64,000 nt of DNA from Octopus sinensis (GCF_006345805.1 NC_043000.1:158534001-158598000); one strand, 5' to 3'; shown: positions 14,459-59,416, numbered from the stretch's first letter. A program made the numbers and translations. The notes: a model not told the origin generated them from the letters alone.

Positions 14459-14871
14459 GTTGTGCAAGAATTTTTATGTGAAGTCGTGTGTTGAAACAGA
14501 TATTGTTATATTTCGGAATGGTCATATTGCCAGTTTAGCCAATAAACAGAAGATACAATATTACAGGCATCCCCCCACATACACACACTAAATAAACATA
14601 AACGCACATAGAGATATAAGCATGCGCAAATGAAAACATACAATACAAATACAAAATGGCTGACGGTTAGTAAGGAGAGACACAAATAAGAAAGAAGAAA
14701 ACAAAGGACCACTGATGCGGTCACAGGAGTGTGACGAAAGAACTCTGGCCGAAATAAGATTAAGATTAATGTAAAATATAAATAATACTGAAGCAAAATA
14801 ACACCAAATATATAGTGCGTGTGTTTTTATTGGCTAAACTGGCAAAATGACCATTCCGAAATATAACAATA
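14459..14871 (+). mobile_element. Penelope-like pLTR remnant with ~47-bp inverted repeat and degenerate hammerhead
   Basis: ATATTGTTATATTTCGGAATGGTCATATTGCCAGTTTAGCCAATAAA at 14500 is inverted at ~14826-14872. At 14707-14750: gacca-CTGATGC-g-gtcaca/ggag/tgtgac-GAAA-gaac-TC-tggcc. (TA)n on both sides. Confidence 0.6.
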
Positions 14872-15049
14872 TATATATATAGATATATATATTTATATAT
14901 ATATATATATATGTGAGTGTGTGTATTTAATTGCCTCAGTTACTCAGTAATCTCTTTAAATCTCAAAATACATACCGCTTGTAAACCCATAATTTTTTTT
15001 TTTTTATTTGGTTTCAGATTTTGGCACGAACCCAGGAATGTTGGGAAGA

Positions 15050-15222
15050 GGGTAAGTCGAGTTCATCCCCCTCAGTGTTCGACTGGTACTTATTTTATCC
15101 ATCCTGAACGGATAAAAGGCAAAGCCGACCCCGGTGGCATTTGAACTCGGAATGTAAATTTGGAAGAAATGCCGCTAAGCATTTTTTGCCGGCGCAGTAA
15201 CGATTCTGCCACTTCACCACCT
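15050..15222 (-). mobile_element. SINE family B (Deu/Nin-like core), diverged
   Basis: Homologous to the copy at 63071-63292. Confidence 0.8.
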
Positions 15223-15561
15223 TTTCTATAAGAAATTTGACAGATTAGTTTGGAAGTATATTGCATATTGCTGGCAGATGTCTCTTAACTAAAAGAGAAT
15301 TGGCGTTGTTAACAATGTTTGTTCTCAATAAATTACTGTACTACAGAATATATCTACAAAATATTAAATCTCTATTTTTTTAAACCAGCGATGTTTGTAT
15401 AGACAGACGTAAATATACCTTATATCTGTATACAGTATCTTTATAGTCAGTAAAAGAAAGAACGTCGTAGGCAGGTGATATGCATCTCCACACGTTTCAA
15501 GTAAACATCTTATTAGTACAGACATTATTTTCAGTTTTATACTCAGCTAGTAAAATATATA

Positions 15562-16110
15562 TTGGGTGGTTCGGAAAGTTCGTGCCGATTTATAGTAGCT
15601 TGCATTTCGACTTATTTTAGAACATGGTTGAGTCCATAAAATCGGATTTGACTACACCTCCATTTAGAGCACAGTTTAAGCTATCTTTTCGTGGAAGAAG
15701 GTTTATGTTCCTATAAACTGTGTTAATTCTGTAACCCTTTAAAATGGGAGCAGCACTTGATGCTTTGGGAACCAGACAAAATTTGCTGCTGCTCGGCTGG
15801 GATGCGTTACCCCACCCTCCATATTCACCAGATATTGCTCCTTCGGATTTCCACTTATTCAGGTTTCTGTAGAATAGTCTTAATGGTAAAAATTTCAATT
15901 CCTAGGATGACATAAAAAGATACCTTGATGAATTATTTGCCATGAAACCACCTCAATTCTGGGAAGAGGGTATTTTCATGTTAAAGGAAAGATGGAGACG
16001 AATTGTGCAACAAAATGGTTCATATTTGGTTGATTAAAAATGCATTGGCATGTATTTATTGACCTTTTCCTTTCCTTTAAAAATCGGCACGAACTTTCCG
16101 GACAACCCAA
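15562..16110 (+). mobile_element. internally deleted mariner with both TIRs and TA target duplication
   Basis: TTGGGTGGTTCGGAAAGTTCGTGCCGATTT at the left and AAATCGGCACGAACTTTCCGGACAACCCAA at the right, both flanked by TA. Retains only GWDALPHPPYSPDIAPSDFHLF...GIFMLKERWRRIVQQNGSY. Confidence 0.93.
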
Positions 16111-55859: not shown

Positions 55860-55998
55860 TTAGCGGTTTGGCAAAAGAGACCGAGAGAATAAGAATCAAG
55901 CTTAGAAAAAGAAGTGCTGAGATCGATTCGTTCGACTCAAAAACTCAAGGCGGTGCTCCAGCATGGCTGCAGTGTATTGACTGTATCAACTAAAAGAT
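55859..55998 (+). mobile_element. SINE family A 3' tail
   Basis: CTTAGCGGTTTGGCAAAAGAGACCGA..GGCGGTGCTCCAGCATGGCTGCAGT. Confidence 0.8.
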
Positions 55999-57850
55999 AT
56001 TAGTGAATAAGTAATACAATCGATGCTATCGTCTACCCAGTTCTAGATAGTTCAAGCTTGGTGCCTCTGTGAGTAAGAATGATTATCATTATAAGAAATG
56101 GCACACTGGGGAGTAGAAACGATACAGGAGATGTTTAAATGTTTTGTGATCTTGATTGCAACAATTTGCCATTTATTTTCATGTCATGTCTTCTACGATT
56201 TTGTTTCACATCAATCTGAAACTGATAAAATATATATCATTGAAACGCATGCCTCTATTGCATACAGTACATTCAACCTTTATTTTTTCTGGTCTTATTC
56301 TTTTATTTCATATCATTATTATTTAACATAATATTTCAGACGTTCACCTAATATCTCATATAACTGATTGGCAATATCAATAAGAAGTGTATCCTGGGAA
56401 ATCATGGTACCTTTAATTATTATGATAGTTGGTCTTATAAGAATTGCAAATCAATTATAAATCATTTCTTGTTTGTTGCTAGATGCTGCTGCGGCTGCTG
56501 CTGCTAATTACACCAGTAATATTATATTAGTAATAGTAATATTGTTTTCCTTTTCCCTTTATTTGCCTTAGGGGAATCAAATGAAGGGATATTACAAAGT
56601 TTGCCACTTGCATGAGGTGGAGTAGAGTGGGGGTCCACAGGCATGATGATAAAGAAGGGGTGAGGAGGGCGAAATGAGATAAGAGTATTTAAAGTTCACA
56701 AAATATGTGAACACATGAAGGATGCAGTCCGTCCTCTTTATACGAGGGCCAATAATTGAAGCCCACAGATTCAGCATCAATTTGACTCCCAAAAGCATGA
56801 ACATTTTCCCAGCTGTTGTCTTCTAATCACCAAACACGGGCTTAGAGTTTGTATATTTATCCTAACCATTTTCCCCACATTCACCCATTTTACACACATT
56901 TAATGGGAAGCTTTTCCCTCGTCACTGTCACTTTCCTTTGCAAGTGGCATTGGCAATGTCGATGATGGATTGGCTGAAGAGGAAAATGTATTTACTCCAA
57001 AATGGAGGCCAACATCAATTTTTTTCTGTAATTGGCTTCACGAATTGCTGAGATATTTTCTTAACACAAAGCCAGTGGTAACCTTAATACACAACTAAAG
57101 AATCTTTATCTATCAATGCGGTATCGATCACTCGTTTTCATTGGCTGTGTGGCAAGAAGCTTCTTCCCAATCCACAGCGGTTTCCCGACTTTTTTCTATG
57201 TATCCGATTTATGATTTAAATATCACTACCCGTATCCAAATGTAGTTTAAAGTTTACACCATTTATTTTTACGTATAAGAATTTTCTTTTTGTGTGTGTG
57301 TTGCATTCATTTTCTACTACAAACACATAAAAACTTTTTGTGTCCGACCCTCGTAATCTTGTGTTGCCGTGTAAGCTCTTGTGACCACGTTTCTGAAAAC
57401 TTTAGCATGTTTGGTTTTTAAACGGACACTCTTTTCTGAAGTGTAGGTCTCCACGTCTATAACATGGATTGAGGCCTGACATTCCTTTTTGGTTGTAATT
57501 TCGGGACGGCCCATCTTTATTTTTTGCGAAATCTCTCTCTTGAATTAATTTCACGTCGTGCTTCAGGTTTACCATTGTTTGACATTCCTCTGCTATGGTC
57601 TATAGGGCTAGGTCTTAGTTTGCTTGATACATACATACATACATATATACATACATCTATATCTATCTATTTATCTATCTATACACATATATATATATAT
57701 ATATAATATATATATATATATATATATATATATATATATATATATGTACATACCGGAGGAAGCACATAAATGTGAAACAAGGTGGAAAAAAGAGTACTCA
57801 AATACCAAAGGTAGAGTAATATGCTTTATTTAACGCAGCAGAACTATAAC

Positions 57851-57998
57851 AAAAGTTGTTACTCAGAGTTTCACGTTCCCGTTCGTCGGACAGTTTTGTT
57901 AAAATAAAAATTTAAATAAAAATTAAAATAAAAATAAATTTTTTTTTAAACAAAACTGTCCGACGAACGGGAACATGAAACTCTGAGTAACAGCTTTT
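57851..57998. repeat. 50-bp-arm inverted repeat made of two divergent hammerhead variants
   Basis: Plus strand 57956-57993: ctgt-CCGACGA-acg/ggaa/cat-GAAA-ctc/t/gag-TA-acag. The minus-strand copy at 57857-57893 has the paired acg/cgt helix II. Confidence 0.85.
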
Positions 57999-58939
57999 AA
58001 ATATAGCGTATATATGCTTTTAAATATAGTATTAAAATTTTTTCGTTTGCCCTCATTTATAAGTTGTTTATAATTTTAACCGTTAAAGGTATTTTTTAAT
58101 ATGCTGGCCATTGATAAATTTTTTTTTTTCGAAAATATTTTATCCTACATTAAATATAAATTTAATAGTGTTCACTTCCGGATTATCTCACTCTGTGAGA
58201 GCCTCAGTTCAAAACGCACGTGTCTTGAATGGGCTGGAGTATTTCTATTTTGGATGTATTTGGGGTACTTAATTGTTCTCATCACTTAGTGTTTTGCTTC
58301 TTCCATGGGTATGAGTAAGTATCTCATTTATTTCTTTGCCACATTTATCACTGAAAAAGGGAGGGTTCTTACAAACTAACCCTGAAATCCGTCCGATATG
58401 GTAATAATGGAATTTTTTAGAAATTTCTGTTGGCTTTTTTTCGAGTAGCGTGCGTATTGTGAAAAATTATATGGTTATGGAAAATTATTGCCAATTTTCG
58501 GCATATTTGGCATTAGAAACTTTTTCGTTTGCCCTTATTTATAAGTTATATATACATATATGCATATTCCTTTAACTTTTTATTCCTTTGCTGGTTCCAC
58601 TAAGAAGTTATGACCAGGATCTTCTCTGTTGCTGTCACAAGTTTTAAATGAATTTTTAAATGAGGACAAAATTTTAAATTTTCGTGTAGGGAAGCAATTT
58701 TTAACGTTGAAACTGATGTTATTCTCTTGTTCCAGAAAAAATTTGAAAAATGTGACAGAAGTTCAATAATTTTTATCCAAACAGAAAATAGTATTTGGAA
58801 CCTGGCATTTAGCGCGTGACAGTTGTGAAGCACAGCACTACAAGTAAACTCACACAAATAAACATAAGCGCACAAACTTTACTTTTCGTCGAGCAGTTGT
58901 GAGCAACATATATATATATATATATATATATATATACAC

Positions 58940-59416
58940 ATATTATTCAAAGGAATTCCAACTCTGTGTTTAATGTTTCATTTATATTCTTTACAATATT
59001 AATGTAGAATATAGAATATATAGTATAAATAATATATATATATATAGTAAAATGAAATGAAGTATTGATTGTTGTCTTATTGAATAGATGAAATATTGAA
59101 TATCAAATATTAAGTGTCTAGTATACTTCCTTGCATTAAAGCAGTCTTCAAGGTCCCAGGTTGTGACAGGAGTGTTTGACAGTTGAAACATTCCTGTCAC
59201 AACCTGGGACCTTGAAGACTGCTTAAATGCAAGAAAGTATACTAGACCCTTAATATTTGATATTCAATATTTCATCTATTCAATAAGACAATCAATACTT
59301 CATTTTATTTTACTATATATGCTATTTATACTATATATTCTATATTCTACATTCATATTATAAAGAATGTAATTGAAACATAAGAAAAACAGAGTTGGAA
59401 TTCCTTTGAATAATAT
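58940..59416. repeat. ~480-bp near-perfect palindrome with hammerhead-like motif in each arm
   Basis: Centre ~59181. At 59206-59249: gggacc-TTGAAGA-ctgc/ttaaat/gcaa-GAAA-gtatac-TA-gaccc. TA-rich flanks. Confidence 0.92.

What the first reader, a model, noticed from the sequence alone, without database searches (positions are those of the whole stretch)
14459..59416. Six unrelated hammerhead-associated insertions share a divergent (head-to-head) palindromic architecture
Seen: inverted arms at 14459-14871, 21053-21890, 29734-31082, 48411-48617, 57851-57998 and 58940-59416. The sequences are unrelated to each other. Yet in every case the ribozyme-sense strand reads outward from the centre, and most are bounded by (TA)n. 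Known: Penelope-like insertions often carry an inverted pLTR. Inferred: a shared mechanism in which both ends of a break in (TA)n prime reverse transcription and the two cDNAs are joined. That would make this machinery a systematic generator of genomic palindromes.
Basis: partly seen in the sequence, partly recalled or inferred. Interest (0 to 1): 0.75.

Follow-up and report, generated by a model that had tools for sequence, protein, structure and literature searches.

The report
Head-to-head Penelope insertions, likely twin-primed
The six mirror-image inserts are real back-to-back end pieces of Penelope-type jumping genes, a layout already known, and because one arm nearly always carries a short tail that the other lacks, they were likely made by copying one RNA from both cut DNA ends.

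Summary
All six inverted structures exist and all are head-to-head. Each belongs to a separate repeat family. Three are 3' ends of Penelope-like elements (PLEs) with a GIY-YIG endonuclease frame (one link rests on a single locus), one is a 487-nt retrozyme-like tandem, and two have no coding partner found. Over 182 loci, 83 show inverted pieces, all divergent; an evenly spaced 800-kb sample gave 9 divergent, 0 convergent. In the young family both arms share a haplotype, and centre joints are enriched for 2-5-nt microhomology. Some arms are not contained in each other, which a fold-back copy cannot give. Best reading (inferred): twin priming by a PLE enzyme at two start sites on one RNA. The layout, one-sided tail and (TA)n preference are in print (Arkhipova 2013, Craig 2021); the mechanism is called open there. 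The scan has reported the same reading on other DNA, including this genome. Junctions were not confirmed in reads; ribozyme activity is untested.

The parts
14459..14546 (-). El.1 (family F1) left arm: tailed 3' end (B)
   Evidence: (ref 430-526)
14542..14872 (+). El.1 right arm: tail-less 3' end (A); 5-nt overlap with the left arm
14706..14750 (+). Type I hammerhead-like motif, core CTGATGC (A9 changed in the family majority); activity untested
21023..21463 (-). El.2 (F2, 3' end of a Neptune-type PLE) left arm, tailed (B); ribozyme motif decayed
21467..21890 (+). El.2 right arm, tail-less (A); U3-A8-type minimal hammerhead near 21801-21836, helix III and cleavage triplet changed in this copy
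   Evidence: core variant described in PMC4209133
29734..30668 (-). El.3 (F3, 487-nt retrozyme-like tandem) left arm, 1.9 units, tailed (B, 231 nt past the predicted cleavage site); hammerheads at 29967-30057 and 30454-30544
30668..31082 (+). El.3 right arm, tail-less (A, 129 nt past the predicted cleavage site); hammerhead at 30861-30951
48274..48515 (-). El.4 (F4) left arm, tailed (B; may reach about 48258); only the 3' half of the hammerhead
48527..48619 (+). El.4 right arm, tail-less (A)
57753..57900 (-). El.5 (F5) left arm, tailed (B); minimal hammerhead, core CCGACGA, at 57860-57889
57945..58012 (+). El.5 right arm, tail-less (A) with a small deletion; hammerhead-like motif at 57960-57989
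58940..59177 (-). El.6 (F6) left arm, tail-less (A)
59179..59449 (+). El.6 right arm, tailed (B); variant hammerhead-like motif at 59206-59249

Best explanation
These are single head-to-head insertions of Penelope-type element ends, each pairing a tailed arm with a tail-less arm, and they were likely made by twin priming: a Penelope enzyme pair would cut both strands of a TA repeat and copy one RNA from both cut ends, starting at two fixed sites. Shown: divergent layout, two fixed 3' ends per family, A-with-B pairing, TA targets, centre microhomology, shared haplotype of both arms (family F3), link to GIY-YIG coding elements for F1, F2 and F6. Inferred: each target 3'-OH primes a cDNA that grows inward; the two cDNA 3' ends anneal at 2-5 nt or are end-joined and complete each other's second strand, which forces RNA 3' ends outward. 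For F3 the template would be a circular or multimeric 487-nt RNA read through its ribozyme site, mobilised in trans. Single-armed copies would be events in which the second cDNA was very short, absent or lost.
For: Orientation: F3 29 divergent, 10 single, 0 convergent of 39 loci (counted by eye); F1/2/4/5/6 54 divergent, 89 single, 0 convergent of 143 distinct loci (7 duplicate rows of 150 dropped); unbiased 80 x 10 kb sample 9 divergent, 20 single, 0 convergent of 29. Pairing: A+B 67, A+A 1, B+B 1, 14 unclassifiable of 83; p 4e-18 against 1:1; 6 of the 67 are the window's own. Single arms end at A and B about equally (9 and 8 in the sample; 18 and 14 among 32 ends at 30 coding-element loci). 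Non-containment: e.g. L152 (B arm ref 512-588, A arm 1-453), L167, L091, L104, L114, L120, L079, L127. Microhomology of 2 nt or more in 20 of 28 joints without inserted bases, null 15-25%. F3 arm haplotypes: 33 of 49 informative variants shared by both arms versus 0.058 mean and 0.19 maximum in 5000 permutations; distance across arms 0.70%, within an arm 0.78%, between loci 1.44%. A randomly sampled Neptune-type coding element (L248) has the same B-main, A-inverted layout in TA. PMC11167929 (parts 1-2 of 4 read): a PLE protein in vitro cuts and extends both strands, starts at two RNA sites that bound the tail, and is predicted to be a dimer.
Against: All evidence is from one assembly; no empty sites, no reads across a centre joint, no biochemistry. 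22 of 50 joints have unassigned bases instead of microhomology (some are misalignment in old copies). 16 of 49 variants differ between arms, including L009 362T, present in two units of one arm only. Shared haplotypes also fit two RNAs from one source or later gene conversion. The two 5' breakpoints lie within 25 nt of each other in 8 of 29 F3 loci versus 4.1 expected (p 0.04), as a fold-back would give. Two homo-pairs exist (L162, L136). About two thirds of copies in the sample have one arm. The top-40 searches are not random samples and some queries ended at site A. No coding partner was found for F3, F4 or F5 within 1.5 kb.
Confidence: 0.65

Rival explanations
1. Dual priming: both target ends prime, but on two RNA molecules (one per enzyme subunit) that usually come from the same transcript or locus.
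For: Overlapping sequence in both arms is easier with two templates; arm lengths are uncorrelated in F3 (rho -0.03, n 25); some variants differ between arms. The model is described for L1 in PMC2837659 (passages).
Against: No locus with arms of two different multi-locus haplotypes was seen: 27 of 37 informative multi-locus variants are shared and 6 of 12 private ones. Two free RNAs give no reason for strict A-with-B pairing.
Confidence: 0.15
2. Self-priming or fold-back: one cDNA (or an antisense RNA, as Arkhipova 2013 proposed) folds back and copies itself; the endonuclease resolves the other end at the tail.
For: PMC3846280 discussion (passages); clustering of the two 5' breakpoints (8 of 29, p 0.04); many arms are nested; microhomology is predicted by this model too.
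Against: In many non-tandem loci the A arm reaches further 5' and the B arm further 3', or they do not overlap at all (L152, L167), so neither can be a copy of the other. In vitro both strands are extended on sense RNA.
Confidence: 0.12
3. Two independent insertions into one TA repeat, or later inverted duplication and gene conversion.
For: The families are very abundant (29 copies in 800 kb) and target TA.
Against: No TA between the arms, no convergent pairs, same family and haplotype, strict A/B pairing.
Confidence: 0.05
4. Fold-back chimeras of long-read assembly.
For: The centre joints were not confirmed in independent reads.
Against: Arms are 83-99% identical, unequal, end at family-specific sites and sometimes share no sequence. 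The A end followed by TA appears in contigs of 2 of 4 public runs laid (X2, X8).
Confidence: 0.02

Closest known systems
Insertion architecture of endonuclease-bearing Penelope-like elements (PMC3846280, PMC8557442; passages read, plus section 11 of the latter)
   Same: Inverted 5'-truncated copy at the 5' end, head-to-head most frequent, tail at one end only, hammerhead in the terminal repeat, (TA)n preference in several clades.
   Different: Tails here are 33-137 nt rather than 30-40; the pairing rule is counted (67 of 69); the data favour two primers over the self-priming proposed in 2013.
Poseidon PAc of Anolis in vitro (PMC11167929; parts 1-2 of 4 read)
   Same: Two reverse-transcription start sites bounding the tail, both strands cut and extended, AT-rich target.
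   Different: In the parts read, no strand difference in start site was seen and inverted products are not explained; here the two arms use different sites.
Twin priming and dual priming of L1 (PMC2837659; passages read)
   Same: Both target strands prime, giving inverted fragments with some central microhomology.
   Different: In L1 it is a variant with a free internal site and an internal deletion; here both sites are fixed, arms usually overlap in template sequence, and about a third of copies show it.
Metazoan non-LTR retrozymes (PMC7229834, passages; bioRxiv 10.64898/2026.07.22.740005, part 1 of 5 and passages)
   Same: F3 is a low-GC non-coding tandem with one type I hammerhead per unit.
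   Different: Unit of 487 nt is above the 150-450 range quoted; 'inverted' does not occur in the 2020 text and only in a reference of the preprint, whereas 29 of 39 F3 loci carry the PLE inverted signature.

Membership tests
EN+ Penelope-like element | Frame with PLE reverse transcriptase and GIY-YIG endonuclease upstream of the terminal repeat | tested here: met
   F2: endonuclease upstream in the same orientation at 13 of 30 loci (counted by eye); L248 RT plus GIY-YIG (Pfam E 7e-4, just under the curated cut-off). F1: RT upstream at 5 of 30 loci, GIY-YIG-like end in L110. F6: 1 of 30 loci (L086).
EN+ Penelope-like element | Same frame for F3, F4, F5 | tested here: inconclusive
   No adjoining same-orientation frame within 1.5 kb in 39 F3 loci, 30+20 F4 loci, 30+20 F5 loci; F4 and F5 extend further 5' than the DNA held.
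EN+ Penelope-like element | Inverted 5'-truncated copy at the 5' end | tested here: met
   83 of 182 loci, all six families.
EN+ Penelope-like element | Optional tail at one end | tested here: met
   Two fixed ends in all six families; tails 56, 37, about 104, 137, 71, 33 nt.
EN+ Penelope-like element | Type I or minimal hammerhead in the terminal repeat | tested here: met
   Motif pattern in all six family references, with variant cores in F1, F2, F4, F5, F6; no Rfam match.
EN+ Penelope-like element | Target-site duplication | tested here: inconclusive
   Targets are simple repeats; of 16 loci examined one (L108) shows a possible 9-nt duplication in unique flanks.
EN+ Penelope-like element | Clade by reverse-transcriptase phylogeny | not tested
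   'Neptune-type' rests on a CxxC linker and CCHH pattern seen in the L248 translation against descriptions in PMC8557442; no tree was built.
Non-LTR retrozyme (F3) | Non-coding tandem units with one type I hammerhead each | tested here: met
   487-nt period, up to about 9 units per locus.
Non-LTR retrozyme (F3) | Self-cleavage and expression as circular RNA | not testable with these tools
   Needs RNA assays; only contigs were available to lay.
L1-type twin priming | Two inverted fragments with internal deletion of template sequence | tested here: not met
   Arms usually overlap in template sequence; true non-overlap in few loci such as L152 and L167. It works like twin priming but is not the L1 pattern.

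The most novel reading that the evidence does not exclude
Penelope-type enzymes insert by programmed twin priming: a dimer holds one RNA at two fixed start sites, one per target strand, and the two cDNAs finish each other's second strand. On a retrozyme circle both copies roll, giving multi-unit arms of one haplotype. This would explain the inverted repeat, the one-sided tail and second-strand synthesis at once, and would have left some 30,000 palindromes from these six families in this genome.
Probability: 0.45. Interest if true: 0.7.

Novelty: new member of a known kind. Interest (0 to 1): 0.42.

Why it matters
PMC8557442 lists the formation of tandem and inverted structures as an unsolved part of PLE transposition. 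The A-with-B rule gives a sharp prediction for the existing in vitro system. It also ties a retrozyme-like tandem to PLE machinery by insertion signature. Extrapolating 9 palindromes in 0.8 Mb gives about 30,000 in 2.7 Gb for these six families (rough), so the process is a large source of genomic hairpins. The layout itself is ordinary for PLEs.

Tried and rejected
Unmasked self-BLAST and the repeat finder were swamped by microsatellites. Rfam found only hairpin-type chance matches. The first microhomology count was inflated by an internal hairpin of F3 and was redone; two F3 values there (9 and 14 nt) still fall in that hairpin. My hammerhead descriptor is insensitive: 30 hits in the sample versus 6 in reversed sequence, and it missed el.2, el.4, el.6 and one arm of el.5. 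De novo test on 26 sample hits: 5 with an inverted copy upstream, 2 downstream, 19 none; I judged the 2 downstream ones to be a neighbouring F2 palindrome and a distant 29-nt match. Reads: no RNA holder listed; contigs on the F3 monomer listed no strand-change joint and no piece spanning it, which proves nothing; the centre joints remain unchecked in reads. One search used wrong coordinates and gave nothing relevant. No relatives are held for empty-site comparison. 5' ends near the predicted cleavage site are only weakly enriched (8 of 68, p 0.02); not used. No common motif or hairpin at A or B across families was evident, though several A sites sit at an internal ATAT. Print searches for the mechanism: 'Penelope' + 'twin priming' 3 papers, none on PLE mechanism by listing; five-term search unrelated paper. 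[quoted passage not shown]

Full report
Setting. The window is G000:C4:158534001-158598000 in a 2.72-Gb assembly of 13,516 contigs, AT-rich and full of microsatellites. Earlier notes of the scan call it an octopus genome; I did not test that.

Observation. After masking simple repeats, self-comparison recovers inverted arms at all six places, 83-99% identical. Hammerhead-type motifs (recalled core CUGANGA...GAAA...UH and variants) lie in or beside five of them; el.4 keeps only the 3' half. Rfam has no hammerhead among 124 weak hits. Oriented by family references, every left arm is on the minus strand and every right arm on the plus strand. TA repeats flank both sides of 4 of 6, one side of el.5 and neither side of el.2, against 1.3% background.

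What they are. Each element belongs to a family with 664-2273 first-look candidates, of which 40 were scored per search. F2 is the 3' end of a Neptune-type PLE: a GIY-YIG frame precedes it at 13 of 30 loci, and a randomly sampled 4-kb coding copy with an 81% similar end (L248) is itself flanked by a 624-nt inverted copy. Its endonuclease finds 138 scored matches at 87-100% identity, several in 784-aa open frames, so a young coding family exists. In that list I count 6 divergent neighbours and 1 convergent pair 9 kb apart. F1 follows an RT and GIY-YIG-like frame at 5 of 30 loci, F6 at 1 of 30. F3 is a 487-nt tandem with one hammerhead per unit, retrozyme-like. F4 and F5 extend 5' as non-coding DNA beyond what was held.

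Orientation. F3: 29 divergent, 10 single-armed, 0 convergent of 39 loci. Other families: 54 divergent, 89 single, 0 convergent of 143 distinct loci, after dropping 7 duplicate rows; two of the 54 are probably low-complexity matches. Evenly spaced 80 x 10 kb: 29 copies, 9 divergent, 0 convergent (p 0.002).

The asymmetry. Every family has two fixed 3' ends, A and B, 33-137 nt apart. In the window, el.1-5 have B left and A right; el.6 has A left and B right. Overall A+B 67, A+A 1, B+B 1, unclassifiable 14 of 83. All 5 classifiable pairs in the unbiased sample are A+B, while single arms there end at A 9 times and B 8 times. Coding copies behave alike: 18 A and 14 B ends, and both inverted arms in range pair A with B.

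Mechanistic tests. (a) Containment: a fold-back copy must lie within the first cDNA. Many non-tandem loci break this, some with no overlap at all (L152, L167). (b) Centre joints: 20 of 28 without inserted bases have 2 or more shared nt against 15-25% in simulated blunt joints; 22 of 50 have unassigned bases. (c) Template identity in F3: both arms share 33 of 49 informative variants against 0.058 in permutations, including 6 of 12 private to one locus; units differ as little across arms as within an arm and half as much as between loci. Units within an arm share variants too, as a circular or homogeneous multimeric template would give. (d) Against: 16 discordant variants, and 5' breakpoints closer than chance (8 of 29, p 0.04), which fits fold-back or a shared RNA 5' end.

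Mechanism (inferred). Both target ends prime inward at two fixed RNA sites; the cDNAs meet and complete each other. This forces the divergent layout and puts the tail on one side. The in vitro findings on a lizard PLE (two start sites bounding the tail, both strands extended, predicted dimer) fit, though that study saw no strand difference in start site. One RNA versus two RNAs from one source cannot be separated here.

Known and new. The inverted 5' copy, one-sided tail and microsatellite preference are described as typical; head-to-head is called most frequent and explained by self-priming on an antisense template; opposite-strand hammerhead pairs 100-700 bp apart were noted in 2014. Twin and dual priming are known for L1. 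My searches found no paper applying them to PLEs, but key subscription papers were not seen. The scan itself has 121 matching notes in at least 26 genomes and similar readings in this genome; these are unchecked and not independent support.

Limits. One assembly, no empty sites, no reads across joints, no ribozyme or RNA data, top-hit sampling for most counts.

Verdict. Observation confirmed, interpretation supported by indirect evidence, layout known. Interest 0.42.

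Noticed in passing
window 60967-61839 and 62162-63034: Two 873-nt direct copies (98.9%) separated by (TA)n; the minus-strand frame and short repeated tail look like a LINE 3' fragment (recalled resemblance; no Pfam hit).
   Followed up: partly
window 6550-13678: Tandem 540-nt and 640-nt units separated by long (AAT)n arrays, including a 2.5-kb array at 7189-9697; family unknown.
   Followed up: no
window 40892-42173 and 59476-60648: Two 88% identical copies of a mariner-type element with 37-nt terminal inverted repeats and Transposase_1 matches; one sits just right of el.6.
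   Followed up: partly
L040: In a six-unit F3 arm, variants 19C/420G and 192T alternate between units, as a dimeric circle or later duplication would give.
   Followed up: no
L094, L095, L110: The F1 coding element carries an internal (TA)n between its endonuclease frame and the hammerhead-bearing end at several loci.
   Followed up: partly
window 14712-14718 and family references: Non-standard hammerhead cores are the family majority: A9 changed in F1, U3-A8 in F2, U4C in F4 and F5, an extra base in F6.
   Followed up: no
L213:1-1084, L264:1-1687, L243:7305-8117: Long near-perfect inverted repeats without TA flanks or detected hammerhead in the random sample.
   Followed up: no
window 58371-58400 region (58340-58410): A stretch between el.5 and el.6 resembles a decayed hammerhead seen at L277:17-60; possibly a seventh family.
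   Followed up: no
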